Below are positions 4,441 to 64,000 of a DNA stretch of 64,000 nt, in pieces. Numbering within the stretch: position 1 is the stretch's first letter; each line of letters opens with the position of its first letter. The DNA is taken from the NCBI GenBank assembly GCA_951406725.2, contig OX597828.1, positions 50,158,001 through 50,222,000 of the forward strand, given 5' to 3'. The notes under the pieces were generated by a model. It did not search any database. It saw nothing but the letters and a program-made list of their open reading frames with translations, and was not told the DNA's origin. The translations under genes and the position numbers were made by a program. The stretch is from Octopus vulgaris (lineage: Eukaryota).

Positions 4441-5327
4441 GGCGCAAGAGTGGCTGTGTAGTAAGAAAGCTGCGAGCTGAGGAAAAAAGAACGTTGTTTA
4501 AGAGAAGCGAAAGTCGGCGGGCGCTTTTCGTCTTCTCCCATCATCATCATCATCATCATTTTTGCATCATTATCATTCATCCCATTAATGTCCGTGTCAG
4601 CCCGCAAAGCTTCTATCTGTGTGATGCCCTTGTGGCAAATTAAATGAAATAAAGAAAGCGGCGACCTGGCAGAAACGTTAGCGCGCCGGCCGAAATACTT
4701 AGCGGTATTTCGTCTGCCGCTACCTTCTGAGTTCAAATTCCGCCGAGGTCGACTTTGCGTTTTATCCTTTCGAGGTCGATAAATTAAGTACCAGTTACGC
4801 ACTGGGGTCGATGTAGTCCTTGTTTGTCGTCTCTGTGTTTAGCCCCTTGTGGGTAGTAAAGAAATAGGTATTTCTTCTGCCGCTACCTTCTGAGTTCAAA
4901 TTCCGCCGAGGTCGACTTTGCGTTTCATCCTTTCGGGGTCGATAAATTAAGTACCAGTTACGCATTGGGGTCGATGTAGTCCTTGTTCGTCGTCTCTGTG
5001 TTTAGCCCCTTGTGGGTAGTAAAGAAATAGGTATTTCGTCTGCCGCTACCTTCTGAGTTCAAATTCCGCCGAGGTTGACTTTGCCTTTCATCCTTTCGGG
5101 GTCGATAAATTAAGTACCAGTTACACACTGGGGTCGATGTAATCGACTTAATCTCTTTGTCTGTCCTTGTTTGTCCCATCTATGTTTAGCCCCTTGTGGG
5201 CAATAAAGAAATAAGAAGCTTGCTTCCCAACCATATGGTTCCTTAAGTAAGTGTCTTCCACTATAGCCTCGGGCCGACCAAAGTCTTGTGAGTGGGTTTG
5301 GTAGACGGAAACTGAAAGAAGCCTGCC

Positions 5328-10069: not shown

Positions 10070-10115
<46 letters not shown>

Positions 10116-10542
10116 TATAGATACACATACATATATACATATATAAATATACACACACACATATATAAATATATATGCATATACACACACACACACACTC
10201 ACATACACACATATATATATATATATATATACATTTCAACAATTGAGGGTAAAATTAATTAATTATTAATTAATTTCACCAAGTGTTCAGTATGCAAAGG
10301 GACCATTTAAGGCGAATTCAAATTATTACAATATATAAAAGGGCTTAGTAAAATAAATTACTTTGCCGCATACTGAACTCATTAGAAATAGCATACTGAA
10401 CTCATTAGAAATAGCAGCTAAAAAACTTTTTTAAAAACCATTTCTAATACTTAAAGAAAATCTCTCTCGTATAATGTTTGGTCAACTCAACTCACGAAAG
10501 TTTGGGGGTAAAGACATAAAAAAATCAAATGCAAAGGTTATT

Positions 10543-10594
10543 TGAGAACGTACGTTTCAAGATTAGTCATCAAGACACTTCTATCATCAGCTCA
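10543..10594 (-). ncRNA. Type I HHR motif (left arm)
   Basis: Mirror of 11568-11619. Confidence 0.6.
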
Positions 10595-11567
10595 GAAACT
10601 CCATGGTTTGGATTTGAAAACACTGAAAGTGAGAGCAAACTTTTTCGGCCTCTCATCGCCTTCGAAGATCTGCTCGTAACTAACAGTGCCAACAAACCCA
10701 AACATGCAAGCGAAGAATTTCTGTCCTCCCCTTTCCACCAGCGTGGGTTAAAATCAACAAACACTCTGCTTATTTCGGTAAAATCCGAAGCATTAATTAG
10801 AGGGAGATTAATTATAATTTCAACAATTGAGGGTAAAATTAATTAATTATTAATTAATTTCACCAAGTGTTCAGTATGCAAAGGGACCATTTAAGGCGAA
10901 TTCAAATTATTACAATATATAAAAGGGCTTAGTAAAATAAATTACTTTGCCGCATACTGAACTCATTAGAAATAGCAGCTAAAAAACTTTTTTAAAAACC
11001 ATTTCTAATACTTAAAGAAAATCTCTCTCGTATAGTGTTTGGTCAACTCAACTCACGAAAGTTTGGGGGTAAAGACATAAAAAAAAAGTCTTTACCCCAA
11101 ACTTTCGTGAGTTGAGTTGACCAAACACTATACGAGAGAGATTTTCTTTAAGTATTAGAAATGGTTTTTAAAAAGTTTTTTAGCTGCTATTTCTAATGAG
11201 TTCAGTATGCGGCAAAGTAATTTATTTTACTAAGCCCTTTTATATATTGTAATAATTTGAATTCGCCTTAAATGGTCCCTTTGCATACTGAACACTTGGT
11301 GAAATTAATTAATAATTAATTAATTTTACCCTCAATTGTTGAAATTATAATTAATCTCCCTCTAATTAATACTTCGGATTTTACCGAAATAAGCAGAGTG
11401 TTTGTTGATTTTAACCCACGCTGGTGGAAAGGGGAGGACAGAAATTCTTCGCTTGCATGTTTGGGTTTGTTGGCACTGTTAGTTACGAGCAGATCTTCGA
11501 AGGCGATGAGAGGCCGAAAAAGTTTGCTCTCACTTTCAGTGTTTTCAAATCCAAACCATGGAGTTTC

Positions 11568-11619
11568 TGAGCTGATGATAGAAGTGTCTTGATGACTAAT
11601 CTTGAAACGTACGTTCTCA
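11568..11619 (+). ncRNA. Type I HHR motif (right arm)
   Basis: tgag-CTGATGA-tagaagtgtc..gactaatctt-GAAA-cgtacg-TT-ctca; palindromic stem III; non-canonical U-U at the base of stem II. Confidence 0.6.
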
Positions 11620-11808
11620 AATAACCTTTGCATTTGATTTTTTTATGTCTTTACCCCCAAACTTTCGTGAGTTGAGTTGACCAAACACTATATGAGAGAG
11701 ATTTTCTTTAAGTATTAGAAATGGTTTTTAAAAAATTTTTTTAGCTGCTATTTCTAATGAGTTCAGTATGCGGCAAAGTAATTTATTTTACTAAGCCCTT
11801 TATATATT

Positions 11809-11927
11809 ATATATATATACATATACGTATATGCATATATAAAATATATATGCATATATGAATATATATATATATATACATATATACATATATACATATA
11901 TGCATATATAAAATATATATGCATATA

Positions 11928-11965
<38 letters not shown>

Positions 11966-12494
11966 TATACATACATATATAAATATATATATACATGTAT
12001 AAATATATATATGTACATAAATCTTTATATACATATATATATATATATATATAAATATATATACATATATATAAATATATATACATATATATAAATATAT
12101 ATACATATATATAAATATATATACATACATATATACATATATATATATATAAATATATATACATGCATATATACACATATATAAATATATATACATACAT
12201 ATATACATATATACATATATATAAATATACACACATACATATATACATATATATATATATAAATATATATACATATATACATATATATAGATATATACAT
12301 ACATACATATATATATATATATATGAATATATACATACATATATACATATATAAAATTATATGTATATGTATGTAAAGCATATATGTATATATTTATGTA
12401 TATATGCATGTATATATATATATATACACATATTACACATTATATGTGTGCGCATGTGGGTGTGTGTATGTGTGTATGTATGTGTGTTTGTGTG

Positions 12495-15634: not shown

Positions 15635-16389
15635 TATTTCTTTACTACCCACAAGGGGCCAAACATAGAAGGGACAAACAAGGACAAACAAAGGGATTAA
15701 GTCGATTACATCGGCCCCCGTACGTGACTGGTACTTAATTTATCGACACCGAAAGGATGAAAGGCAAAGTCGACCTCGGAGGAATTTGAACTCAGAACGT
15801 AGCGACAAACGGAAATACCTATTTCTTTACTACCCACAAGGGGCTAAACACAGAGGGGACAAACAAGGACAAACACACGGATTAAGTCGATTACATCGAC
15901 CCCAGTGCGTAACTGGTACTTAATTTATCGACCCCGAAAGGATGAAAGGCAAAGTCGACCTCGGCGGAAATTGAACTCAGAACGTAACGGCAGACGAAAT
16001 ACCTATTTCTTTACTACCCACAAGGGGCTAAACACAGAGGGGACAAACAAGGACAAACAAAGGGATTAAGTCGATTACATCGGCCCCCCGTATGTGACTG
16101 GTACTTAATTTATCGACCCCGAAAGGATGAAAGGCAAAGTCGACCTCGGCGGAATTTGAACACAGAACGTAGCGGCAGACGAAATACCTATTTCTTTACT
16201 ACCCACAAGGGGCTAAACACAGAGAGGACAAACAAGGACTGACAAACGGATTAAGTCGATTATATAGACCCCGAAATGATGAAAGGCAAAGTCGACCTCG
16301 GCGGAATTTGAACTCAGAACGTAACGGAAGACGAAATACCGCTAAGCATTTCGACCGGCGTGCTAACGTTTCTGCCAGCTCGCCGCCTT
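15635..16389 (-). mobile_element. SINE family B, array of about four body units
   Basis: ~185 bp period; TSD attttatttct at 15624-15634 and 16394-16404. Confidence 0.85.
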
Positions 16390-20107: not shown

Positions 20108-20510
20108 TCTTTTCTTTTCTACTCTAGGCACAAAGCCCGAAATTTTTGAGGAGGGCGCTAGTCAATTAGATCGACCCCAGTTCGCAACTAGTAATTAATT
20201 TACCGACCTCGAAAGGATGAAAGGCAAAGTCGACCTCGGCGGAATTTGAACTCAGAACGTAACGGCAGACGAAATACCTATTTCTTTACTATCCACAAGA
20301 GGCTAAACACAGAGAGGACAAACAAGGACAGACAAAGGGATTAAGTCGATTATATCGACACCAGTACATAACTGGTACTTAATTTATCGACCCTGAAAGG
20401 ATGAAAGGCAAAGTCGACCTCAATGGAATTTGAACTCAGAACATAAAGACAGACGAAATACGCTAAGCATTTCACCCGGCGTGCTAACGTTTCTGCCAGC
20501 TCGCTGCCTT
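20108..20510 (-). mobile_element. SINE family B, two units with an alternative tail
   Basis: Homology to family B. Confidence 0.8.
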
Positions 20511-20984: not shown

Positions 20985-21235
20985 CCTTTTGGGGGACTAC
21001 CTTATAAAGACTGACAATACTATTAAAGCAAAAATACCAGATATGATTCCAAAGGACAAAACCAAACAGCGTAAGATTATGAATTTTGCAATTTTCTATG
21101 ATAGCAAAGTCGATAGCAAAAAAAAAAAAAAGAAAATGGAAAAAAAAATTGAGAAATACCAAGATCTAGCTAGAGAGTTGAGGAGACTGGAAGACTAAGA
21201 CAACAACTATCCCTTAGGTAATTGGTGCACTAATC
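20985..21235 (+). pseudogene. Old RLE-type non-LTR retrotransposon endonuclease relic
   Basis: ...KIPDMI...KIEKYQDLARELRRL...VIGAL motifs. Confidence 0.55.
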
Positions 21236-21816
21236 CAGAAGGAATATAAGCGACGCCACAACAATATAACCAGGCTTGTCCATTGGACACTTTGCAACAC
21301 GTATGGACTTGACAGAGCTAAAAATTGGTACGACCACAAACCTGAAGGCATCGTCGAAAATGGAAATGCAAAGATCCTATGGGATTTTATGATTCAGTGT
21401 GACCATGAGATAGAGAATAGGAAGCCGGACACAGTCTTAATTGAGAAAGAAAACAAACGATGCTGGATCATAGATATAGCATGCCCAGCTGACAATAAGG
21501 TATGCAATAAGGAAGAAAGAAAAGTCGAGAGATGTGACAGGTTAGCTTGGGAAGTTAAGCAGTTGTGGTCGATGAAAAACGTAGCAGTAGTACCAATAAT
21601 TGTCGGAGCCCTGGGAACAGTGAGCAAATATCTCGAGAAGTACGTGTAACAAATAGGGACTGCAATAAGGGTGGGGCACTTGCAGAAAACAGTATTGCTT
21701 GGAACCGCTCGGATACTCCTGAAGGTGCTCGAAAAATAAGAGGTTTTACCTTAGTTCACTGGTAGTGAACAGCTGAAACTGTAATACATCTGCAGCGTTA
21801 GAAGCTGTGCAAAGGC
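21236..21816 (+). mobile_element. R4/Dong-like non-LTR retrotransposon 3' end (restriction-like endonuclease)
   Basis: RHN...ILWDF...RKPDTVL...IIDIACP...VPIIVGALG; internal stop at ~21647; followed directly by (TAA)n. Confidence 0.8.
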
Positions 21817-27718: not shown

Positions 27719-28968
27719 GGGTTGGAAAAATAATGGAAACACCTTAAAATTTCAAACAAATTAATTTTAATATGGAGTAGGACCGACTTTGGCAGTAATT
27801 ACACCTTGAATACTACGAGGTATGGACTCATACAAAGTTTGAATTGTTTCCAAAGGAATTTTTGTCCATTCTTCTGCTAAAACAGTCTCCAGTTCTTGTA
27901 GTGATGATGGTGGAGGATATCGACTCCTTACTTGTTTTTCTAAAATGCACCATAAATGTTCAATAATATTGAAATCTGGGGACTGTGGTGGCCAGATAAG
28001 ATATTCAACTTCGCTAGAATGTTCCTTGTACCATTCAGTAACAACTTTAGCTGTGTGAATTGGTACATTATCAACCTGAAAAATTGCGTTTCCATCCGGA
28101 AACAGTTCTGCAACCATTGGATGAATTTGATCAGATAAAATACTTAAATGAAGGTAAACCATTGGGCTGGCGAATTTCCAAGATATAGCGCCACTCAAAT
28201 CATCACAGATCCTCCTCCATGTTTAACAGTTGGAAGAAGACAGTCTAGGTCAAATGCTTCTTTTGGCTGTCTCCACACGTATACTTAGCCGGTGTTTGGA
28301 AATAAGGTAAAAGATGACACGTCCGAGAAAATAACATTCTTCCACTGTTCTAGGGACCAATTCTGTAGGTTTTTACTCCACTGAAAACGCTTTGCAACGT
28401 TTGTTTTGAAAGTAGTGGTTTTATGATTGCAGCCCTCCCGTGAAATTCGGCTTTGTGCAGCTCTCGGCGAACAGTTTTTGTGGAAACTGGGTTCTCGAGG
28501 TGGTCATTAAGCTCTGCAGTAATTTTGGGAGCTGTACTTTTGTGATCCTTTGTAACAATTCGAGTAAGAGTCCGAGGGTCCCTACCTGAAAAATTTGATT
28601 TTCTTCCGGAGTTTTGTTTCGACGAGGAGGTTTCCCCTCTTTCTCAAAGCTGTCATTACTTTCGAGACAGTACTTCTTGCTACACCAAGCATTTTGACTG
28701 CTTTCGTTATGCTACCGCCTGCTATACGAGCACCAACAATTTTATCTCTTTGAAAGTCTGATAGATCTGTCGTTTTAATAAATTTTAATTACCTTTTTCT
28801 AATGATATCTGAAAAGAAACAGCAATTTTAGCAAAACATATTAAGCAACACTAATAATAAATAAAAAATACACAAAAATAAACAAGCTTTTGACTGTTTT
28901 ATTGATATTTCAAAATTGTGATGCTATGATGCTATTATGCTGGGTGTTTCCATTATTTTGTCCAAACC

Positions 28969-29217: not shown

Positions 29218-30286
29218 CAACACACACACAAACATGTATGTATAATATGAATGACGTCACAGAAGCATTCATATCGAGGTATATCTATCTATCCATCTTG
29301 TGATTCAAACAGGAAAATAGAACTTAATCCATGCGCATATATATATATATATTAAAAATAGAAAATGGAATTTACGAGTTTCATTATTCAAATTCACTAG
29401 AATTGGTCGACTTATTCCACAACTCTACTTAACTAGTGAGATGCTGTACAATTGTCTTGCATCACAGATACAGATTGCGTCTCCTCGGGTGACTTTTAAA
29501 CAAGTGCCCCGTTTTTTCTCCTCGCCATTACACTTAGCTCTATTATAATACATATCTAATCTATGAAGCTGCAGCATTCTAGCAGTTTTCATGAGAAACT
29601 GAGACTGAAAAACACTTCTCGTCAAAAATATAATAAAATACACCGAGAACATTAAATGAATATCGTCCCCGTAGGCCTTTCTCAATGGCGTCCGTTCACA
29701 GTCAGCTACGAGATTTGTTGCCTCTCATGTGAAGTAAAGCAGCGAATAGCCGCCCGGCTGAATAAAAATCCATTATATGCAATGGAAGCTGTGCTAAATT
29801 AAAATAGCCATCTACGTATCATATTGGCAGATAAATTATATTTACTGCTAAAAAAAAGACGAAACTGCAGTATAAGATGAGCCGAGTTTGTAAATGTTTT
29901 TGATTTTATTTCATTGAATTTATCCACTTTTTGTGATCTAGTACTTGCTTCTTCTTTTAGAGGCCTTTTAATGTACTTATATATGAATAACATATAGCCT
30001 AATGGCTAACTTGTCTTTTGTGCTAGATCACCGGTAATAATAATTTATTTTATTACCTTTTTACTATGTTATCATATTTAATGTAAATACGTTAATGTTA
30101 ACATACTATTTCACGGTAGATGGGAGGCAAGAAATCTCGTATAAGCGTGTGGATCGTTGTGAGTAAACACTATTGACAAGGTTTAGAAATGCTGAAATGC
30201 ATCTGGAGTATCTGTTCACTGTAGTTGGGGCGATTTTTGTCTCCCTCAGATATATATTGTGTTTTTAAATATATCACGACAGTAAT

Positions 30287-34904: not shown

Positions 34905-35626
34905 ATGGCTTTTGAAACGAGGTCCATGGAATTTGATTTACATTCGAATTTCAAGATAATGTCCAAAATGTAACCGGAATAAAAGACTACGAAACGTAGT
35001 TGATTCTAAATCTACTCAATGATGATTTACCTAGGGCTAAACAATAACGGAGACGCGTTTGAAATGATATGAATTATAAATTAGTTTCAGGCAGAAACAA
35101 TTTGTAATCAGTCATTGAGACACGGTATTTAATTAAGAGATAATAAAAACAAGTTATAAAACATGACGGCTGTGTTCGACATCTGCATATGTAACTATGG
35201 TAAACTATAACTTTTGACGGATTCATTTACGTATTTACGTATAAACAAAAGTTATGAAATTAACACTGACTCAAGCGACGACCTTCTGATATATGGAAGA
35301 ACGAGGGGATCAACACGTCATTGACAAACGAGTCGTCATGTGATGTAGTGATGGTGAAAGTGGGGTGTCTAGCAGCCGGAGGTTCAACATAAAAGTGAGA
35401 ATAGAAGTAATCGCTATATTAATATTTTCGACTAAATAAGACGAAGAAACTGAAAATAAAAATAAAACAACGTATGAAATGCATTTCTTGTTAATGTTAA
35501 TTTTACTGGTTTGGTGATACATACATATACACACACACACACACACAAATACACACATCTATAATATACATACATAAGTACACACGCACGGATACACATG
35601 CACACACGAATGTACAAATACATTGT

Positions 35627-35705
<79 letters not shown>

Positions 35706-35761
35706 CATACCTACCTACCTACCTACCTACCTACCTACCTACCTACCTACCTATCTATCTA

Positions 35762-36841
35762 TTGTCCCTAAAAGGTCGAGCGGAGGTGGCGAACACGTAC
35801 ATCGCGTCCGTCATCTACTACCGCCTGACCGTCGTACCTTGTCCCGACCCTACTATCACCAAACTAGAACGCATCCTCTTTCGCTTCTTGTGGAAAGGAT
35901 GCGTCCCGATGGTCAGGCGATCCATTTGCTGTCAACACCCGTTAAAAAGAGGGCTGGGCATGCCGTGGTTGATGATGCGCAGACACGCGCTGAGACTGCG
36001 GCATCTCTGGCTCTATGTAGACGACGGTGAACAGGTGTGGTCGCCGTTTGTGAGGCACGCTTTCCCGCAGCTCGTCTCCATGACCGAACTGCAGTCGTGG
36101 ATCAAAAAGAGGCCGAGGAAGGGCGAATGGCACCGCGAGTGTCGCGTTGCTCTCAAGCAACTCTGCCGTCCTGGGTCGACCTTAAGTGACTTCAACACAA
36201 CCAAAGCATTCTATAGGGGTTTAGTGGAGGGGAGGTACGACGACGAGCTCGGGGCGAACCTGGACGTCGACGAGGAGTACCTGACCCGCCTGTTCAGGAC
36301 GACTTTCGGGCCAGGGCCCATGGACAACTTCCAGAGATCCCTGGCCTGGCAGTGCTACCGAGAAGCGCTACCCGTTCGGGATAAGCTCTACAGACACGGC
36401 TCGAGAAACACGGGGCCGACCTGCCCGAGATGCGGTCAGAGCGACGAAACCGTTCTGCACGCACTCGTTCAGTGTCCAACAATTTCCGACCTGTGGGCTT
36501 ATGTCGAACAACTGCTGTCACGTGTGGGACGAGTCGGTTTATCAGCTGAGTCTATCGTCAATATTGTCACGCCTCCTTCCTTCAAACGGGAAGGAAGAGC
36601 TATTTTCATCATCCTTGTGGCTATGGCGAAAGAATGTATCTGGTGGACGCGTCTGAAAGGATTGGAGACAAACACTTTCCTCTCTGGTCAATCTCTCATC
36701 AACTTCTTCAAGTACCACTTGAAAAAGAAAGTGAGAGTAGAGAGGCAAGTTTTGTCTAGCGAATGTTTTAAAAAAAGATGGGTGAATGTAGCAAGAATGG
36801 CACGTATGAATGACGAAGCCACCTTGAGCATAGTCCTATGA
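35762..36841 (+). CDS. Tx1/L1 ORF2 C-terminal fragment (post-RT region and CCHC zinc finger), no true start codon
   Basis: SLKGRAEVAN, FLWKG, GLGMP, CPRCGQSDETVLHALVQC motifs; 359 codons open. Confidence 0.8.
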   Translation: MSLKGRAEVANTYIASVIYYRLTVVPCPDPTITKLERILFRFLWKGCVPMVRRSICCQHPLKRGLGMPWLMMRRHALRLRHLWLYVDDGEQVWSPFVRHAFPQLVSMTELQSWIKKRPRKGEWHRECRVALKQLCRPGSTLSDFNTTKAFYRGLVEGRYDDELGANLDVDEEYLTRLFRTTFGPGPMDNFQRSLAWQCYREALPVRDKLYRHGSRNTGPTCPRCGQSDETVLHALVQCPTISDLWAYVEQLLSRVGRVGLSAESIVNIVTPPSFKREGRAIFIILVAMAKECIWWTRLKGLETNTFLSGQSLINFFKYHLKKKVRVERQVLSSECFKKRWVNVARMARMNDEATLSIVL

Positions 36842-38387: not shown

Positions 38388-40626
38388 TATACACACTTAT
38401 GCATATATAAATATTATGAACGATGCAGACATGTATATGCATATACTAGAGAGAAGGAGAACGAGAGAGAGAGAGAGAAAGAGAACGAGAGAGAGAGAGA
38501 GAGAGAGAGAGGGGAAAGAGAGAAAGAAAGAAGGAACGCGAGCGAGAAAGAAAGAAAGACAGAAAAAGCGTGACTAGCGAATGTGTTAGAAGTTGTGTAT
38601 GCTCGTGCATGCTGTAAGACTGAATAGAAAACGAGCAAAGTTTGCTTCTTAGTTTATTGAAAATGAGAAAAAAGAAACGGAGGAATAAAAACCATTGAAA
38701 TAAATCCGAAAATATTCTATTTTCAGATAATTAATCGTTTACACGAATTGCCTTGAGTTAGTGTCAAGTGTTCATAAGTGTAGAGATTTTTGCACCAGTA
38801 GACGTCCTATTTCTGCTGTTGAAATATTGTGTCTTTAAATACGTTTTCTTCTTTTTTTTATTAAATAGTGCGCTTGTATGTATGTATGTATGTATGTATG
38901 TATGTATGTATGTATGTATGTATGTATGCACGCATATATACGTACACATATACATGTATATGTGTACGTATATATACATATATATGAGCATGTTTGTATG
39001 TGTACGTTTATTTATTTAGATACACATATATTTGTATATATGTATAGAGATACATGTGTGTATATATATGGGTGTGTGTATGTATATTTGTGTGTGTACA
39101 CAGACATGCACACACATACGTACACACACACGCGCGAGCACACACACGCGCGAGCACACACACATACACACTAAAGAAAATAAGTTCTTCAGCCACACGA
39201 CTAGACGTATAAGTATAAGTTTGAATTTACTTTATGAAAATTTATTGATAAGTACTTAACCGGTTTCACAATTTTCATGATTTTCAAAACAGTGAATTAT
39301 TGGGAATTTTCGAATTACCGTATTTATGTGGACTAAATTTCGAGTGGTGTTTTCTCACAATATGGTTTTTGTGGCTATTCTTTTTATATTTTTATTTATT
39401 AAAATTCATCATTATTTAGCAAATTATGAAACCCTTTTGCATGTTTACTTAAAGTTTGGTAATTTCCTTCCGTGAATACGTAGGTCACGTCTGTCTCATC
39501 AGATGTTCAGAGGAGTTTGATAGGCATTCAAGACGGTTTGTAGCTATTTAAACCTTTCTTAGTGAACTCAGGTCACATATTATTAGTTTTATTGGAAGCG
39601 ATACTAGTTCTTTACTTTATTTGTAAGTCCATCTGTTAGGACAGGAGAATGCCGGTGTCACTTCGACAGAGGGAGGGCTGCGGTATAGTATACAATCAGT
39701 GATAGTTATTTGCCTTGTGTACTAAAAATGGTGGTATAAAATGTTGGTTCGAGTCAGCAGAAGTCATTTGGAGCTGATTCAGACTTATTAAATACAACTC
39801 CAACCAAATATTTCTTTTGCTAAATTCTTTCTTTTGCTCAATTACCTGTACACACACACACGTGCGCGCATATGTATAAATTGATTGCAAGGAGATATTA
39901 TTTTGATTTGCAACCATTATATACTGCTAAGTATATCAATGGTTTCACAATTCAATATCGTGTTTTACTTCTTTGCTAGCAGTGCGATGTTTTCATTTTT
40001 AAGTTTATGTCAGCACATTTCTATAGAAACCAGAGCCAGCACTGAACATCGTAATTTTCAGTGTTGGCTCTGAACTCTATAAAACATCTGCAGAGATAAA
40101 CTTAAATTTATGACAAGGCTGACAAAAGATTCACTGCCAGTATAAACAGCCTTATAGATAAACTAACATCTTGGAATATGTCTGTTGATAGCTCGATTCT
40201 GTTTGTAACAATAGGTGTTGCTTTAGTAGTAGTCAGTAATAACTGTATGGACCAGGTTGCAATCATTCTTTCAATGGCATTCACTATAGCAGCTAGTACT
40301 TTGACAAGGCGTAGTTATTCTATCACTCATGAGTGAGACACGGAGTCGAACGCCTTTTTGTAGTCCAGCCATATCATTAGGAGATCTTAGAAGGATATGG
40401 CTTCGCTATTCATGAATGAGATAACTAGTAAATATCTGATAAACAAGAGGGACAAAGATACCACCAAACCTCTATGTTGTGTTAAAAATTTCGGCTTTGC
40501 TATGCCTGTGTGGAAGATCAGCAGCACACATCAGCAGCACACACATCAGCAGCAACTTCCCCCAAATGTCTACTAACTGAGGAAGAACTGCTCTGACGTA
40601 TGCGTCAAAGGTATGTCAGAACCACT

Positions 40627-40858
40627 AGCGGCGAGCAGGTAGAAACGTTAGCAGGCCGGGCGAAATGCGTAACCGTATTTCGTCTGCCGTTACGGTCTGA
40701 GTTCAAATTCCGCCGAGGTCGACTTTGCCTTTCATCCTTTCGGGGTCGATTAAATAAGTACCAGTTACGCACTGGGGTCGATATAATCGACTTTATCCGT
40801 TTGTCTGTCCCTGTTTGTCCCTCTCTGTGTTTAGCCCCTTGTGGGTAGTAAAGAAATA
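40627..40858 (+). mobile_element. SINE family B copy
   Basis: TSD ggtatgtcagaacca at 40609-40623 and 40859-40873. Confidence 0.9.
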
Positions 40859-40894
40859 GGTATGTCAGAACCAGCAGATATTCACACCTTTAAA

Positions 40895-41130
40895 AATAAG
40901 GAATACTGGTGGAACACTCCAACCACGTCATCAATTAGGTGTAAACACAGCAGACCTGATATTGTTCTGTGGGACAGGGAAAACAGTCATGTACTGTTGT
41001 AGAGGTCAGCTGCCCGGCACATGGGAATGTACAATCAAAAGCCAGGAAAAGAGAACATTTATGGCGAATCAATACGGAACTTACAGCTCTTGTATGCTGA
41101 CTATGAATTCCCATTTTTACTCAATCATTA
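40895..41130 (+). pseudogene. RLE LINE endonuclease relic
   Basis: KEYWWN...RPDIVLWDREK...VVEVSCP. Confidence 0.55.
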
Positions 41131-41880
41131 GTTATCTCTCATATATTGAATACAATCTCATTAAGCAGTGAACAACAATAATATTTATTTGAAACAATCT
41201 CCTACATGGCTGTAGAAAGAAACCTTAAACGTTATTTTCGATTTTGCTTTTATGGTTCTTCCACGGCAAAAATTCTGGTCATTTTTTAACTTCCTTCGTT
41301 CAAGAAAATAATAGTTTCAGGTCAGGTTTACCAGAAGATTCACACAAATCACCCTAATCTGATACAGTTGAGTGTCCATCTAGTAAATAATGTCGATATC
41401 TTACTGCAGTTATTCTTCAGAGTTTGCAAAACTATCTTGTCTTTGTATTCAATCCTTCAAAAGAAAGTAAACTGAAAAAATATCTATTCTTCTAACATTG
41501 CATTTTGAAGGGTTTATCGACAGGTTTGGGATGATTAATCCTTTGTTGATAAATACCATATTTTATAAATACCATATTTGTTTATAAAACAGGGATTTAT
41601 TTAAACTGAACGGTCCTTGATGGACAAATGTTTTTATTACACACATTCTGAATGAAAAGGGGGATACCGAGTTCAATATCCTGAGTTTCTTTTTTTTTAC
41701 GTCTTTCAGTAAAAACAATGTTCCTTAACTAACTACCGAGTCTTGTTAATGTTAGGTAAACCATGATAAAGAACAAAACAAGTAGTTGATCAAGTAGTTT
41801 ATTAAAGGAAAACTACATGAACTAATTAATGATCCTTGATACAAGTTACTGACTGATTTATTAGACGGTCATAAATTAAA

Positions 41881-43030
41881 TACGACGGTTGTCCCGAAAG
41901 CTGTACGAAAGTGAGAGTATTAAGTGACATAAGCCATTGAAGTTGCACATGCTGGTTGAGTAACTTTTCATACAAAGATGCTACTTACCATGACCTCTAT
42001 CATATGCGGTTCATTTGCGACAATGTTCAATCCAACGCTCGACTGTTCTTTGAAAATGCTCTGTTGTGTGCTATTGTACCTAATTTTTCATCTCGACTGC
42101 CATCAAATCGTTGTCCCAAAGACTGTCTTCCATTGAACCGAACAGGTGGAAGTGAAATAGCGGTAGACCCGTGGTGGACGGTGGATGGGAGACTTCTTTG
42201 TCAATTGCTTTTGTAACCGAAGTTGCGTGTGGTCACTTCAGATTCTAGTTCTATTTCTACCTTTTAATGGCTTCTCTAAACCACGTTCCAGAAAAACGGA
42301 GAACGACGCCTTTGTCTTTCCCCAATAATGGTTCTTGAATTGAGGAAAATGTGTGACGCCATTTTATGGTATGAGCCTTCGTTTCCGGATCATAAAGATA
42401 CACCCACGTTCTCATCCCCTGTCATCAAATCGGAGAAGAACGTTTTCTCATTAGTTTCAAACGCTTCCAGCAGAACAAAGCACACTTCCACCCTTCTCTA
42501 CTTCAAATCGGGTGTCAGTAGTCGAGTTACCCACTTCTCACTCATTTTCTGTTACCTAAAGTTTTCTACTATTTCCCGTAATGCCTTGTGATCACAGTCT
42601 GGTTCTATAACATGTTCACGGATCGTGTCTTGTCTGTCCGTGTAAATGAATTTGTTTACTCGTTTGTGATTCGTGTCAGTAAAGCATAAATGATGATTTC
42701 CTACCGTGTCTCTTCTCTTCAATACTTGTTTCTATTTCTTTAAAATTCTTCGTCCATCTGTGCGCATTCCTCTTATCAACAATATCATCTCAGTAAACAA
42801 AATGTAGCCTTCTGTGGATGATGGACAACCAGCACCCTTCCTTTGTCAAAAACTCAGGGATAACCTATTGCTTCTGCTGGAACCAATTATTTGCCTGCAA
42901 TGGAGAAGAACATGAAGGAGAGTTCCAATAGAGGAAAATTTATTCTACCAACATCTGCAATTAAAATGAACTACGTCCGTTAATGAATAAGTTATGTTCC
43001 CTTTGGATTACATTCGGTACAACCCTCTTA
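41881..43030 (-). mobile_element. Degenerate mariner-type transposon
   Basis: TGDE(T)WV motif; imperfect TIRs tacgacggttgtcccgaaag / cattcggtacaaccctctta (16/20). Confidence 0.7.
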
Positions 43031-43559: not shown

Positions 43560-44893
43560 ATAAGAATTCCTATTCTCTATCCCAACTCATTATATCTGGT
43601 CTGTTGCGCTTATATTTTATTGAAATCTCCACTGGGACATTCCACCAGTATTCCTTTTTATTATTAGTGGCTATGGCTTATACCATACTGTGGGTTCTTA
43701 TTATTTTTGACTTCGGGATTATCCTTCCGATGGATTTTATTATAGAGTGTGCTAGCTACAACATCATGTCTCATTGGTAGATAATACTGTGATGACATTT
43801 TGGACGACTGCTTATGATATCTTCAGTGTGAGCTCCACAAAGTCTACATCGGTTATCACATTTTACTGCTTTTCCTGCATCTCTATCCCTTTTGTGCATC
43901 AGGTATTTGCTTGATCTTTCCTGTTCCTGGATTGCAAACGCATACCCTTCAACGTGAGAGGTAGTAATCCGGCTATTGGTCCATGATAGACTGCTTTGAT
44001 GATCGATGTTACTATTATCTCGGAGCCTTCTAACAAATCCATGCATGGTCTTCTGCTCATATAGGTTCATCCTTTCATCTGATGATACGTTGCGGCAGAG
44101 TCGTGCGACTTCTTTTGGCATGTATTCTAGGTTATAAGACAAAGAATGTTGCTCAAGGAGCTGCCTTCCAAGTCTTATGATGTTATCAGCCTCATGTGTG
44201 CAAACTTGGTCAAGGGATGAAATTCAACACTTGGTGGTTAAAAGATGTTGCCGAAGGGATATGATACGACATTCAAAGGCATTCTGGATCAATGTTAAGC
44301 ATCTGCCGGCTTGTTTTCATTTTAGGTAGTGGCGGTCTACGTCACTGTTTACGTGGAAATTATGTGTGTTTGTTAGTATTTTTCGGGTTTTCACATCAAT
44401 GGCTGGGATCTCATCAATCCTCCAATCAAGCACCCCAAATGTTGGTATGACTACTGGCACTGCAAACTCCTTGTGGTCCACTGTTTTATTGAATGCAGAG
44501 AGTTTTGAGTTTCAAATTTTCTTTATTTTGCTGTAATATTCTTTAGTGACACATGCTTTGTTACAGGTGTCATGGTAAGATATGTTTTCATCCACCCCTA
44601 GATACCTGTAACATTCCTCGTCATATATAGGGAAAACAGAGTTTACATCATTGATGGAGATGTTGGTAATCTGGTTTTTAGTTTCCCCCCTTTTCACACC
44701 CATATAACAACATTTATCCTGATCAAGCTCCAACCATACATTCTTTGAACATCTTGTAACTAGGTCAAGGCCCTTTTTCATCTCATGCATATTTTTTGCA
44801 TAAAGTTTCAAGTCATCCACAAAGAAGCAGCGTGTAATTTTGGTATTCCCGTTTCCTTGTGAACCAGTGAAATATCCTTCAGACTTCCTTAAC
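43560..44893 (-). mobile_element. RLE-type non-LTR retrotransposon relic (RT, zinc finger, start of endonuclease)
   Basis: FFVDDLKLYAK, YRYLGV, EGYAFAIQEQ, CRLCG motifs; stops and frameshifts. Confidence 0.8.
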
Positions 44894-45348
44894 ATGTATG
44901 TATGTATGTATGTATGTATGTATGTATGTATGTATGTATGTATGTATGTATGTATGTATGTATGTATGTATGTATGTATGTATGTATGTATCCCATGAGT
45001 GGATTCCTCATGTGTTTAAATGTACACTGTATCTTATGACTAATAAGTAGTCTTTTGGACTAAATTTTTACACGTTAGACCACTGGAAATGTAAATTTTA
45101 ATTAATTCTATTTCCCTTTGATATGATTAAATATTGTATGTATGTATGTATGTATGTATGTATGTATGTATGTATGTATGTATGTATGTATGTATGTATG
45201 TATGTATGTATGTATGTATGTATGCATGTATGTATGTATGTATGTATGTATGTATGTATGTATGTATGTATGTATGTGCGTATGTATGTATGTATGTATG
45301 TATGTATGTATGTATGTATGTATGCATGTATGTATGTATGTATGTATG

Positions 45349-45377
<29 letters not shown>
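44894..45377. repeat. Two (TATG)n tracts
   Basis: Direct reading. Confidence 0.9.
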
Positions 45378-45379
<2 letters not shown>

Positions 45380-45931
45380 GCACGCACGTACGTAATTATG
45401 CGACATCATTCCTTCTTGATGGTAAATATATGAACTGAGTCATAATGACCTGCACAGAAAAAGTTATACTGCTATTACAGAGAAAAGTAGTTATACCCAG
45501 AAAATACAGTATATGATAAATGAAATACATCTCGGCTTCACTAGCTTAATATGATTAAGATAATTCCAGGATCAGCAGGCTGGTCGTCGTAATTGCTACA
45601 CTATATACTAACGGTTGTCATAGATGCAAGCTTTGTTTATCAGGAAAGTTTAATAATTAAACCGTGAATTAAACGGAATCAAACAAATCGTCTGAGCTGA
45701 TCTCCGATTGGCCCAGCGTAACTGTATCTGTAAAGGCTGTTTAAACTTGATGACATTTTCTGATCTAGTTCTGTTGGCTCCTATCAAGTTTTTTGTATTA
45801 TTATTATTATGACTGAGTGAGAGAGGAACGCATGCCATCAAAGTGACACTGGGGTACAAATATACGAAGCCCAATATAGCCATCATGACTACCCGTACAA
45901 TAAGTACCACTGTCTGGTACTGAATCAAAGC

Positions 45932-45989
<58 letters not shown>

Positions 45990-46019
45990 GTCATTTACTT
46001 TTAATCTGCATGCTTGATG

Positions 46020-46268
46020 CAATCACTTGCCGGGACACACCCAGCGCCCTAGGGCAAGTGAAGGTTAAGAGTTGTTGAAATATAGCTGAAAGCTTGGGGA
46101 GGGGAAGTAGAGAAATATCTCCATGTAATACAAACACAAACATTTACATTGATAGGGTTTTTCTAAGGATGTGGGCAGTACTTGTTAGCACAATCTTTTG
46201 GATTTCCTTGAGACATGGTTCTCCAGGGATATTGTCTAGGTGTTTCTGACATCCCTTTTTTATCATAC
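46020..46268 (-). mobile_element. RLE LINE 3' end (family of 34277-34640)
   Basis: Reverse-complement homology; flanked by (TTA)n. Confidence 0.7.
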
Positions 46269-54814: not shown

Positions 54815-54846
<32 letters not shown>

Positions 54847-54990
54847 AGCAATAAAGATTCAAGTTAATTTAAATGAATTTACTTGAATATGGTACCTAAC
54901 TTAGATGCACCAAAAAAAACTATACTGATTTAACAATACAGTAATGTGGGGTAATTATAAGCGAGAATGAAGCAACAAGAATGGATAGGT

Positions 54991-55081
54991 TTTTAGTACA
55001 ATCGTTTCATACAAGGACAGGTTTTATTAAAAGTTGCAAAAATTACAGCATATAAACGTGTCCCGTACTCATCAGCTAAAA
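54991..55081 (-). ncRNA. Type I hammerhead ribozyme (left arm)
   Basis: Mirror of 55444-55534. Confidence 0.75.
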
Positions 55082-55443
55082 TACATGTGAGTTCTCTAGA
55101 CATCCTAGTGGTTGAGGCTATACTCATGAAGTAATGTAGATAATTAAGTAACATAAACAGATTTCAAAAGTTCGTTAAAGTTCTTTAAAGATGATGTACA
55201 GTCTTATCACAGAATTTTAAAAAAGTTTTAATAGCATCACAGAGGAGGTGACCTAATCCATAGTGCACATATGAATTTCCAGAGATGATGCTATTAAAAC
55301 TTTTTTAAAATTCTGTGATAAGACTGTACATCATCTTTAAAGAACTTTAACGAACTTTTGAAATCTGTTTATGTTACTTAATTATCTACATTACTTCATG
55401 AGTATAGCCTCAACCACTAGGATGTCTAGAGAACTCACACGTA

Positions 55444-55534
55444 TTTTAGCTGATGAGTACGGGACACGTTTATATGCTGTAATTTTTGCAACTTTTAATA
55501 AAACCTGTCCTTGTATGAAACGATTGTACTAAAA
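55444..55534 (+). ncRNA. Type I hammerhead ribozyme with extended stem II (right arm)
   Basis: ttttag-CTGATGA-gtacgggaca...tgtccttgtat-GAAA-cgattg-TA-ctaaaa; 6-bp stem I, intact core, GUA triplet. Confidence 0.8.
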
Positions 55535-55562
55535 ACCTATCCATTCTTGTTGCTTCATTCTC

Positions 55563-55623
<61 letters not shown>

Positions 55624-61365: not shown

Positions 61366-64000
61366 AGCCATATCATTAGGAGATCTTAGAAGGATATGGC
61401 TTCGCTATTCATGAATGAGATAACTAGTAAATATCTGATAAACAAGAGGGACAAAGATACCACCAAACCTCTATGTTGTGTTAAAAATTTCGGCTTTGCT
61501 ATGCCTGTGTGGAAGATCAGCAGCACACATCAGCAGCACACACATCAGCAGCAACTTCCCCCAAATGTCTACTAACTGAGGAAGAACTGCTCTGACGTAT
61601 GCGTCAAAGGTATGTCAGAACCACTAGCGGCGAGCAGGTAGAAACGTTAGCAGGCCGGGCGAAATGCGTAACCGTATTTCGTCTGCCGTTACGGTCTGAG
61701 TTCAAATTCCGCCGAGGTCGACTTTGCCTTTCATCCTTTCGGGGTCGATTAAATAAGTACCAGTTACACACTGGGGTCGATATAATCGACTTTATCCGTT
61801 TGTCTGTCCCTGTTTGTCCCTCTCTGTGTTTAGCCCCTTGTGGGTAGTAAAGAAATAGGTATGTCAGAACCAGCAGATATTCACACCTTTAAAAATAAGG
61901 AATACTGGTGGAACACTCCAACCACATCATCAATTAGGTGTAAACACAGCAGACCTGATATTGTTCTGTGGGACAGGGAAAACAGTCATGTACTGTTGTA
62001 GAGGTCAGCTGCCCGGCACATGGGAATGTACAATCAAAAGCCAGGAAAAGAGAACATTTATGGCGAATCAATACGGAACTTACAGCTCTTGTATGCTGAC
62101 TATGAATTCCAATTTTTACTCAATCATTAGTTATCTCTCATATATTGAATACAATCTCATTAAGCAGTGAACAACAATAATATTTATTTGAAACAATCTC
62201 CTACATGGCTGTAGAAAGAAACCTTAAACGTTATTTTCGATTTTGCTTTTATGGTTCTTCCACGGCAGAAATTCTGGTCATTTTTTAACTTCCTTCGTTC
62301 AAGAAAATAATAGTTTCAGGTCAGGTTTACCAGAAGATTCACACAAATCACCCTAATCTGATACAGTTGAGTGTCCATCTAGTAAATAATGTCGATATCT
62401 TACTGCAGTTATTCTTCAGAGTTTGCAAAACTATCTTGTCTTTGTATTCAATCCTTCAAAAGAAAGTAAACTGAAAAAATATCTATTCTTCTAACATTGC
62501 ATTTTGAAGGGTTTATCGATAGGTTTGGGATGATTAATCCTTTGTTGATAAATACCATATTTTATAAATACCATATTTGTTTATAAAACAGGGATTTATT
62601 TAAACTGAACGGTCCTTGATGGACAAATGTTTTTATTACACACATTCTGAATGAAAAGGGGGATACCGAGTTCAATATCCTGAGTTTCTTTTTTTTTACG
62701 TCTTTCAGTAAAAACAATGTTCCTTAACTAACTACCGAGTCTTGTTAATGTTAGGTAAACCATGATAAAGAACAAAACAAGTAGTTGATCAAGTAGTTTA
62801 TTAAAGGAAAACTACATGAACTAATTAATGATCCTTGATACAAGTTACTGACTGATTTATTAGACGGTCATAAATTAAATACGACGGTTGTCCCGAAAGC
62901 TGTACGAAAGTGAGAGTATTAAGTGACATAAGCCATTGAAGTTGCACATGCTGGTTGAGTAACTTTTCATACAAAGATGCTACTTACCATGACCTCTATC
63001 ATATGCGGTTCATTTGCGACAATGTTCAATCCAACGCTCGACTGTTCTTTGAAAATGCTCTGTTGTGTGCTATTGTACCTAATTTTTCATCTCGACTGCC
63101 ATCAAATCGTTGTCCCAAAGACTGTCTTCCATTGAACCGAACAGGTGGAAGTGAAATAGCGGTAGACCCGTGGTGGACGGTGGATGGGAGACTTCTTTGT
63201 CAATTGCTTTTGTAACCGAAGTTGCGTGTGGTCACTTCAGATTCTAGTTCTATTTCTACCTTTTAATGGCTTCTCTAAACCACGTTCCAGAAAAACGGAG
63301 AACGACGCCTTTGTCTTTCCCCAATAATGGTTCTTGAATTGAGGAAAATGTGTGACGCCATTTTATGGTATGAGCCTTCGTTTCCGGATCATAAAGATAC
63401 ACCCACGTTTCATCCCCTGTCATCAAATCGGAGAAGAACGTTTTCTCATTAGTTTCAAACGCTTCCAGCATAACAAAGCACACTTCCACCCTTCTCTACT
63501 TCAAATCGGGTGTCAGTAGTCGAGTTACCCACTTCTCACTCATTTTCTGTTACCTAAAGTTTTCTACTATTTCCCGTAATGCCTTGTGATCACAGTCTGG
63601 TTCTATAACATGTTCACGGATCGTGTCTTGTCTGTCCGTGTAAATGAATTTGTTTACTCGTTTGTGATTCGTGTCAGTAAAGCATAAATGATGATTTCCT
63701 ACCGTGTCTCTTCTCTTCAATACTTGTTTCTATTTCTTTAAAATTCTTCGTCCATCTGTGCGCATTCCTCTTATCAACAATATCATCTCAGTAAACAAAA
63801 TGTAGCCTTCTGTGGATGATGGACAACAAGCACCCTTCCTTTGTCAAAATCTCAGGGATAGCCTATTGCTTCTGCTGGAACCAATTATTTGCCTGCAATG
63901 GAGAAGAACATGAAGGAGAGTTCCAATAGAGGAAAATTTATTCTACCAACATCTGCAATTAAAATGAACTACGTCCGTTAATGAATAAGTTATGTTCCCT
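61366..64000 (+). repeat. Direct duplication, copy 2 (runs off the window end)
   Basis: Matches 40367-43002, including the SINE B copy (61626-61857) and the mariner relic (from 62880). Confidence 0.95.

What the first reader, a model, noticed from the sequence alone, without database searches (positions are those of the whole stretch)
10233..11808. ~561-nt HHR-containing tandem unit (retrozyme-like) folded back into a 1.5-kb palindrome
The left arm holds about 1.5 units (restart at 10817; 23-bp micro-duplication near 10368-10413) and the right arm about 1.3 units inverted. There is one HHR per unit (11568-11619), so a multimeric transcript would self-cleave to a ~561-nt monomer, as in retrozyme circRNAs (inference). 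The unit also has an internal 11-bp stem, gttcagtatgc/gcatactgaac. The HHR has a palindromic stem III, typical of dimer-active HHRs, and an unusual U-U at the base of stem II.
Basis: partly seen in the sequence, partly recalled or inferred. Interest (0 to 1): 0.75.

Follow-up and report, generated by a model that had tools for sequence, protein, structure and literature searches.

The report
Fold-back Penelope-type ribozyme repeat insertion
This is a young, protein-free retrotransposon insertion in an octopus-like genome: a 561-base repeat carrying a self-cutting RNA motif, pasted into a TA run as a mirror-image pair, which is a known habit of Penelope-like elements; this copy cannot release the circular RNA proposed for it.

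Summary
Two head-to-head arms (10233-11086, 1.48 units; 11088-11808, 1.29 units) of a 561-nt unit sit in a (TA)n microsatellite. Each arm has one type I hammerhead (cut 11615/11616; 1 of 20,000 shuffles matches the descriptor).

The interpretation needs correcting:
- Each arm has only one ribozyme, so this locus cannot cut out a monomer. A read-through RNA would fold into a ~720-bp hairpin that masks the ribozyme.
- The U-U at the base of stem II is not unusual: 14 of 25 Hydra-clade Penelope-like (PLE) families have it, and 10 of 25 share the U at the cut site.
- A partial tandem plus an inverted 5'-truncated copy plus a (TA)n target is the published PLE insertion pattern. An unrelated second example lies at 54842-55563.

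Best model: PLE (probably Hydra-clade) target-primed reverse transcription ran past one unit length, snapped back and re-joined the TA target. No PLE protein was found in the window and the unit folds strongly (z about -7), so the template may have been a non-autonomous, retrozyme-like RNA. Plain pLTR fragments of an autonomous PLE are not excluded. New member of a known kind; interest 0.35.

The parts
10072..10232 (.). Left part of the (TA/CA)n microsatellite target; presumed primer for first-strand synthesis (inferred)
   Evidence: Same C-rich polarity as the right flank (TACA:TGTA 6:0 and 35:8)
10233..11086 (-). Left arm, ribozyme sense on minus strand: 1.48 units plus a 23-nt duplication. 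Its 3' end lies 291 nt past the cut site; its 5' end lies 21-22 nt past where the next cut site would be
10233..10329 (-). About 97-nt 3' extension present only on the left arm (PLE 'tail'-like); includes a 33-nt AT-rich hairpin
   Evidence: (D17); published tails are 30-40 bp (PMC8557442)
10368..10416 (.). 23-nt tandem micro-duplication private to one of four partial copies; post-insertion (inferred)
10543..10594 (-). Hammerhead copy 1 (C3 at 10590; first base after cut 10546), identical to copy 2
10520..10846 (+). 108-codon stop-free frame antisense to the ribozyme (P0002); probably not a gene
   Evidence: 63 of 3000 shuffles as long; no Pfam, homologue or Atlas support
11077..11087 (.). Fold-back loop: the unit's 7-A run extended to 9 A; no clear microhomology
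11088..11808 (+). Right arm, ribozyme sense on plus strand: 1.29 units; ends 193 nt past the cut site at an internal TA-rich microhomology with the target
11153..11330 (+). Three stable hairpins: 13 bp (11153-11198); the 11-bp stem (11200-11210/11283-11293) whose loop shows the TA-rich stretch where the right arm's second copy ends; 15 bp (11298-11330)
11439..11569 (+). Long imperfect hairpin just 5' of the ribozyme; captures 11545-11555 and in some folds part of stem I (predicted 'off' fold)
11545..11637 (+). Alternative extended helix I (11545-11555 with 11627-11637, 10 of 11 pairs) closing the ribozyme. Its 3' strand plus stem I is exactly the 22 nt missing from the left arm's 5' end
   Evidence: 13 of 3000 shuffles; noticed after the fact
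11568..11619 (+). Hammerhead copy 2: type I, 4-bp stem I, U-U base and imperfect long stem II, palindromic stem III, GUU cut between 11615 and 11616
   Evidence: compared
11809..12440 (.). Right part of the (TA/CA)n microsatellite

Best explanation
A recent insertion made by Penelope-like element (PLE) machinery, most likely of a (TA)n-targeting, hammerhead-bearing clade such as Hydra, from a protein-free 561-nt ribozyme-bearing RNA unit (multimer or circle). Proposed steps, all inferred: (1) The PLE endonuclease nicks a (TA)n run and the free 3' end primes cDNA on the RNA 291 nt downstream of the ribozyme cut site. (2) The polymerase copies through an intact (uncut or re-ligated) ribozyme and on into the next unit, 1.48 units in all. 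(3) It stalls and slips on a U7 run just short of the next ribozyme's helix I. (4) The cDNA end folds back and copies itself for 720 nt. (5) The new end joins the other side of the target by TA microhomology. The resulting locus is a dead end as a retrozyme, with one ribozyme per strand. If it is read through, it gives a ~720-bp double-stranded hairpin, a likely substrate for small-RNA processing or editing (inferred). In the parent element the ribozyme would be weak alone and cut as a dimer through the palindromic stem III.
For: Shown here: arm geometry, junctions and collinear TA flanks; ribozyme motif far above chance; all differences among the four partial copies are private, so the copies were identical at insertion; no PLE reverse transcriptase or GIY-YIG match among 187 of 187 stop-free frames scanned; strong folding, z -7.1 linear and -7.8 circular, lower than all 22 control windows folded of 40 eligible; read-through fold pairs the ribozyme with its mirror copy; a second, unrelated hammerhead palindrome with the same layout at 54842-55563. 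From the literature: partial tandem plus inverted 5'-truncated copy, tail and (TA)n bias (PMC8557442); head-to-head palindromes read as self-priming on an antisense template (PMC3846280); AT-rich nicking and internal initiation (PMC11167929); Hydra clade targets (TA)n in 26 of 27 families, occurs in Octopus bimaculoides, and has U-U in 14 of 25 and U17 in 10 of 25 hammerheads; Penelope inverted regions yield siRNAs in transgenic flies (PMC3681739). Host is an octopod by inference: the only animal-named relatives of a LINE in the window are from Argonauta hians (2 of 9 hits).
Against: Only one locus of this family is in hand, so a self-contained 561-nt parent is not shown. Under fold-back the right arm's unit junction is a copy of the left one, not independent evidence. 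No sequence link to a named PLE: the Hydra-1_Obim hammerhead differs by eye, and motif searches of that supplement gave 0 hits. Stem III here is 2 bp plus a tetraloop (an 8-nt palindrome), whereas Hydra rows have 3-4 bp. Rfam does not score the motif. The ribozyme fold is ~7 kcal/mol above the minimum-energy fold and stem I probability is <=0.16. A strand-neutral test for RNA-specific pairing was inconclusive (1 G-U vs 1 A-C), the antisense strand also folds well (z -5.2), and one control window reached z -6.9 (8 shuffles only). At 561 nt the unit is longer than the ~170-400 nt invertebrate retrozyme circles of PMC7229834. The fold-back primer would have at most one base pair.
Confidence: 0.55

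Rival explanations
1. Plain pLTR debris of an autonomous PLE. Two 5'-truncated cDNAs (561 and 270 nt) were joined by re-priming at the element's normal start site and then folded back. No 561-nt unit ever existed as an RNA. The machinery is the same as in the best explanation; the template differs.
For: Partial tandems of truncated copies are how pLTRs form. The tandem junction coincides by construction with the insertion's 3' end. The ~225 nt before the ribozyme could be all 3' UTR. The second palindrome in the window looks like such debris.
Against: No coding remnant on either side of the ribozyme. Strong folding spans the whole unit, with a helix starting 7 nt from the junction (11138-11143/11353-11358, P 0.93), whereas the second element's arm shows none (z -0.4).
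Confidence: 0.3
2. Twin priming in place of fold-back: a PLE dimer primes on both cut strands from two RNAs, and the two truncated cDNAs are joined head to head. This is a variant of step 4 only.
For: The purified anole PLE protein nicks and extends both strands and is predicted to be a dimer (PMC11167929). Both arms end on TA-rich microhomology and the centre lacks a good fold-back primer.
Against: The two truncation points coincide within 11 nt here and 46 nt in the second element, and the short arm lies wholly within the long arm in 2 of 2 cases. Fold-back gives both automatically.
Confidence: 0.15
3. The locus is itself an active retrozyme producing a 561-nt circular RNA.
For: Intact core, palindromic stem III (10-nt self-duplex -11.6 kcal/mol), highly self-paired circular fold.
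Against: One ribozyme per strand. Read-through RNA is 95% paired with the ribozyme masked. In the Xenopus tests only 1 of 9 predicted dimers cut in vitro.
Confidence: 0.03
4. Non-autonomous rolling-circle DNA element (Helentron HINE/DINE-1 type) with a chance ribozyme-like motif.
For: An 11-bp inverted repeat arm (11283-11293) followed by a palindrome (11298-11330) lies 15 nt from the long arm's end, like a HINE right module; HINEs carry tandem arrays in oysters (PMC7492417).
Against: The partner repeat is internal and lacks the adjacent 7-12-bp inverted repeat and microsatellite of a HINE left module (direct reading). The ribozyme motif is 1 in 20,000 by chance. Head-to-head inversion recurs with a second ribozyme family.
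Confidence: 0.04
5. Sequencing or assembly fold-back artefact.
For: Long palindrome; three one-base homopolymer differences; PLE tandem/inverted structures trouble assemblers; the window ends in a 99.6% duplicate of 40367-43002.
Against: Arms end at different unit positions. Unique flanks are not mirror images (local score 20 inverted vs 19 direct). Microsatellite polarity is collinear. Arms differ by 4 substitutions including a CpG transition and a 23-nt duplication.
Confidence: 0.04

Closest known systems
Hydra-clade Penelope-like elements (Craig et al. 2021, PMC8557442), e.g. Hydra-1_Obim and Penelope-13_HM
   Same: (TA)n target; hammerhead about 100-400 nt from the 3' end; U-U base of stem II, U at the cut site and 4-bp stem I are common; inverted 5'-truncated copy at the 5' end (noted for Penelope-13_HM); clade present in Octopus.
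   Different: No RT-endonuclease ORF; unit 561 nt rather than 2-3 kb; shorter, perfectly palindromic stem III; longer imperfect stem II; no sequence match to Hydra-1_Obim seen.
Minimal PLE hammerheads (Cervera and de la Pena 2014, PMC4209133)
   Same: Short helix I, long helix II, extra base after the first core box, palindromic helix III; U17 in 20 of 44 rows read and GUU in 12 of 44; paired copies on opposite strands 100-700 bp apart noted in Schistosoma.
   Different: Lacks the conserved G10.1-C11.1 pair; the Drosophila willistoni row appears to share the U-U then A-U start (PDF text, column placement uncertain).
Metazoan non-LTR retrozymes (Cervera and de la Pena 2020, PMC7229834; Li et al. 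2026 preprint)
   Same: Protein-free tandem unit, one type I hammerhead per unit, GC below 50% (34%), highly self-paired circle; size within the 51-972 bp range of the preprint.
   Different: Never two same-sense ribozymes here; inverted, not head-to-tail multimer; PLE-type rather than canonical ribozyme; ribozyme predicted misfolded in the circle, unlike most animal retrozymes; expression untested.
Non-autonomous Chlamys PLEs such as MRC1 (PMC8557442)
   Same: Protein-free PLE derivatives forming pLTRs and multicopy head-to-tail insertions.
   Different: Green-algal; most Chlamys elements lack hammerheads.

Membership tests
Type I hammerhead ribozyme | Core boxes, three helices, NUH cut site | tested here: met
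   GUU is a cleavable triplet (passages of PMC3138052)
Type I hammerhead ribozyme | Match to the Rfam Hammerhead_1 model | tested here: not met
   no hit at gathering score or E<=10; the second element scores 18.4 bits, E 0.042, below the cut-off of 34
Type I hammerhead ribozyme | Self-cleavage | not testable with these tools
   needs an in vitro assay
PLE-type minimal hammerhead | Short helix I, long helix II, palindromic helix III, U-rich and AU-rich flanks | tested here: met
   against the consensus line
PLE-type minimal hammerhead | G10.1-C11.1 pair | tested here: not met
   U-U (or A-U) instead; U-U is however the majority form in Hydra-clade rows, 14 of 25
Autonomous PLE | ORF with telomerase-like RT and GIY-YIG endonuclease | tested here: not met
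   0 of 187 frames in the window match; both flanks are microsatellite. Short or decayed remnants could be missed
PLE-derived insertion | Partial tandem with inverted 5'-truncated copy, head to head | tested here: met
PLE-derived insertion | One-sided 3' tail of 30-40 bp | tested here: inconclusive
   one-sided extension present but ~97 nt (120 nt in the second element)
PLE-derived insertion | (TA)n target; target duplication often not discernible | tested here: met
PLE-derived insertion | Sequence homology to the pLTR of an autonomous PLE | not testable with these tools
   no animal genome collection; only motif look-ups in one supplement (0 hits) and comparison by eye with Hydra-1_Obim
Non-LTR retrozyme | Protein-free tandem unit with one type I hammerhead | tested here: met
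Non-LTR retrozyme | [quoted passage not shown] | tested here: not met
   one per arm; criterion
Non-LTR retrozyme | Highly self-paired monomer circle | tested here: met
   z -7.8, 0 of 60 shuffles as stable, though the paired fraction (0.63) is like that of shuffles (0.62)
Non-LTR retrozyme | Dispersed, permuted genomic copies; expressed linear and circular RNA | not testable with these tools
   no other copy in this window; no host genome or RNA data
Helentron HINE | 3' subTIR followed by a palindrome | tested here: met
   11283-11293 then 11298-11330 (definition)
Helentron HINE | 5' module: subTIR, adjacent 7-12-bp inverted repeat, microsatellite | tested here: not met
   direct reading

The most novel reading that the evidence does not exclude
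An octopod retrozyme family with a Hydra-type hammerhead exists as a 561-nt circular or multimeric RNA with an on/off ribozyme switch, and this locus is a frozen record of its mobilisation by PLE protein: (TA)n priming, copying past unit length through a sealed cut site, a stall exactly at the next ribozyme's helix I, then snap-back. That would be direct genomic evidence for the so far only proposed PLE-retrozyme partnership, with a nameable partner clade, and would show that such insertions turn into long double-stranded RNA sources.
Probability: 0.3. Interest if true: 0.6.

Novelty: new member of a known kind. Interest (0 to 1): 0.35.

Why it matters
PLEs are proposed, not shown, to mobilise animal retrozymes (PMC7229834; preprint). 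A protein-free, more-than-unit-length ribozyme repeat carrying the full PLE integration signature gives a concrete family in which to test that, and points to the Hydra clade. I found no paper describing cephalopod retrozymes: one search returned only Craig et al.; searches added none. This covers the open-licence library only, and the supplements of PMC7229834 and the preprint could not be seen. The giant squid genome paper does report 235 hammerhead-1 loci, so cephalopod hammerheads as such are known. On its own the locus is ordinary transposon debris.

Tried and rejected
Rfam: whole window 0 hits at gathering score. At E<=10 over the element there were only hairpin-type miRNA, snoRNA, CRISPR-repeat and similar matches below gathering score, the strong ones caused by the palindrome centre; 2 weak matches around the ribozyme.

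Protein coding: P0002 gave 1 candidate, none at E<=0.1, near lengths only; Atlas best score 0.76, chance level. P0001 gave 3 weak hits (E about 1e-4) that are internally repetitive translations resembling CRISPR or tRNA arrays (my reading); rejected. No Pfam match for either.

A second hammerhead-like stretch at about 11503-11530 lacks the first core bases and a cleavable site and folds otherwise; rejected. A SECIS reading of stem II was considered from recalled features and rejected (no apical adenines). A possible start codon and intron after the ribozyme give only short peptides; not pursued.

Prokaryotic genomes: 0 exact matches to a 25-nt ribozyme stretch. Bacterial promoter scan empty and not applicable. 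G-U versus A-C strand test inconclusive. Local ribozyme fold no better than shuffles (z +0.9 and +0.6).

My first descriptor missed the second element's ribozyme because of its stem II limit; it was widened. Variant patterns among the four partial copies did not separate fold-back from twin priming.

Unchecked: viral and metagenome contig collections (closed), any animal genome or transcriptome, and covariation across family members (no homologues available).

Full report
Context. The window is AT-rich animal DNA full of microsatellites, short repeats, LINE and Tc1 fragments. The only animal-named relatives of a LINE fragment at 35501-36838 come from Argonauta hians (2 of 9 hits; one hit is labelled as a bacterial metagenome assembly and the rest are unnamed). 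I therefore infer an octopod host. The resemblance of the abundant short repeat to octopus SINEs is recalled, not tested. No host gene was recognised among 187 frames scanned (only Tc1 transposase and zf-RVT matches).

Observation. The left arm spans 10233-11086 with a restart at 10817 and a 23-nt duplication. The right arm spans 11088-11808. The unit is 561 nt, 34% GC. The arms are head to head, with the ribozyme-sense strand pointing outward, separated by an 11-nt A-rich loop. They differ by 4 substitutions, 3 one-base indels and the duplication, so the insertion is young but not an exact mirror. Both flanks belong to one (TA/CA)n run with the same polarity, and the unique DNA beyond is not mirrored. 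No other copy lies in the window.

The ribozyme. Stem I is 11568-11571/11616-11619, C3 is at 11572, and the cut is after U11615 in a GUU triplet. The mirror copy on the minus strand is identical. The descriptor matched 1 of 20,000 shuffles of the unit, although Rfam does not score it. It fits the PLE-type hammerheads of Cervera and de la Pena 2014 (PMC4209133; text parts 1-2 of 4; supplement file 2 part 2 of 3; file 1 not searchable): short helix I, long helix II, palindromic helix III, low activity, probably dimeric. By my hand count, U at the cut site occurs in 20 of 44 rows read and GUU in 12 of 44. It lacks their conserved G-C base pair of stem II. The Hydra-clade table of Craig et al. 2021 (PMC8557442; passages; supplement hits; part 2 of 59) explains that: 14 of 25 families have U-U there, 10 of 25 have U at the cut site, 8 of 25 have both, 26 of 27 families target (TA)n, and one family is from Octopus bimaculoides. 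The 'unusual U-U' therefore points to a probable partner clade. The Hydra-1_Obim ribozyme itself differs by eye, so the partner is not identified.

The palindrome is a known PLE product. Craig et al. describe 5'-truncated partial tandems with an adjacent inverted truncated copy, a one-sided tail and microsatellite bias. Arkhipova et al. 2013 (PMC3846280, passages) report head-to-head as the commonest arrangement and read it as self-priming on an antisense template. This window holds an independent case at 54842-55563: unrelated sequence (best local alignment scores 22 and 30), arms 284 nt at 99%, 46-nt spacer, one hammerhead per arm pointing outward (weak Rfam Hammerhead_1 match, E 0.042), (TA)n on both sides and a 120-nt one-sided extension.

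What the locus can and cannot do. The locus fails the two-ribozyme criterion of Li et al. (bioRxiv 10.64898/2026.07.22.740005; parts 1-3 of 5; supplements not seen). A read-through RNA folds 95% paired, with the ribozyme annealed to its mirror. Penelope inverted regions gave siRNAs in transgenic flies (PMC3681739, passages), so small-RNA output is the likeliest effect if the locus is transcribed (inference).

Was the template a retrozyme-like unit? For: each arm runs through an intact cut site and beyond one unit length. All differences among the four partial copies are private, so neighbours were identical at insertion, as expected from a circle or a homogeneous multimer. No coding remnant was found (the 108-codon antisense frame is matched by 63 of 3000 shuffles). 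The unit folds far better than shuffles (z -7.8 circular, 0 of 60; -7.1 linear) and than all 22 control windows folded of 40 eligible (best -6.9 with 8 shuffles, next -4.6), whereas the second element does not (z -0.4). Against: a single locus; under fold-back the second junction is not independent; re-priming on an autonomous PLE RNA gives the same picture; the antisense strand also folds well (z -5.2); the G-U test was inconclusive; and the ribozyme is predicted misfolded, unlike most animal retrozyme circles (PMC7229834, parts 2-4 of 6; supplement unreadable). I put a PLE origin near 0.88 and, within it, a non-autonomous parent somewhat ahead of plain pLTR debris.

Mechanistic detail, inferred. 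The plus strand can be read as one synthesis primed from the left TA run. It starts 291 nt past the cut site and copies 1.48 units. It stops at a U7 run with two added bases, 21-22 nt short of the next cut site, folds back, and ends at an internal TA-rich stretch that is unpaired in the predicted fold and matches the target. The 22 nt not copied are exactly the 3' strand of stem I plus an extended helix I (10 of 11 pairs; 13 of 3000 shuffles, noticed after the fact). The 5' strand of that helix can instead join the upstream hairpin, which suggests an on/off fold. This is one event, and the second element does not stop near its cut site, so it is only suggestive. Twin priming on both strands remains possible, since the anole PLE protein nicks and extends both strands and does not need ribozyme cleavage in vitro (PMC11167929, parts 1-2 of 4). 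Coincident, nested arm ends in 2 of 2 elements favour fold-back.

Rivals. The Helentron reading meets the 3' module but not the 5' module (PMC7492417, passages) and leaves the ribozyme unexplained. An assembly artefact is unlikely given the unequal arm ends, collinear flanks and real substitutions. The confidences for template (best, rival 1) and for the inversion step (rival 2) concern different steps and are not meant to sum to 1.

Verdict. The feature is real and accurately described, and it is a new member of a known kind. It works like a PLE-mobilised non-autonomous repeat. It is not filed as an active retrozyme or as an autonomous PLE, because a defining test failed for each. No cephalopod retrozyme paper was found (open library only), while squid hammerhead loci are on record (PMC6962438, passages). 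Interest 0.35.

Noticed in passing
window 54842-55563: Second head-to-head hammerhead palindrome in (TA)n, unrelated family: 6-bp stem I, 60-nt stem II region, GUA cut, C3 at +55450 and -55075, 46-nt spacer, 120-nt one-sided tail.
   Followed up: yes
window 40367-43002 and 61366-64000: 2.6-kb duplicate at 99.6% identity, 20,999 nt apart, running off the window end; segmental duplication or assembly haplotype.
   Followed up: no
window 29681-30240: Non-repetitive stretch with a low folding z-score (-6.9, only 8 shuffles); no hammerhead by my descriptor; unexplained.
   Followed up: partly
window 11503-11530: Partial hammerhead-like stretch upstream of the real ribozyme, without a valid first core box or cut site; chance or a decayed relic.
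   Followed up: partly
window 27770-28788 (-): Tc1/mariner transposase in pieces (DDE_3, HTH_Tnp_Tc3_2, HTH_SB).
   Followed up: partly
window 35501-36838 (+): 3' part of a LINE ORF with zf-RVT; closest animal-named relatives in Argonauta hians. One 64%-identical relative is labelled as a bacterial metagenome assembly, probably host contamination.
   Followed up: partly
window 43771-46260 (-) and 21218-21649 (+): Fragments of another non-LTR element (weak RVT_1 at 44515-45015; assignment to the restriction-like endonuclease type is recalled, not tested), interrupted by microsatellites.
   Followed up: no
window 4704-5217, 15635-16389, 20160-20510: Tandem arrays (periods 163 and 185 nt) of an abundant short repeat resembling octopus SINEs (recalled).
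   Followed up: no
window 11106-11182 (+): Possible ~77-nt intron-like segment (donor-like and pyrimidine-AG signals) after the ribozyme, where PLEs often keep an intron; splicing gives no long ORF by inspection.
   Followed up: no
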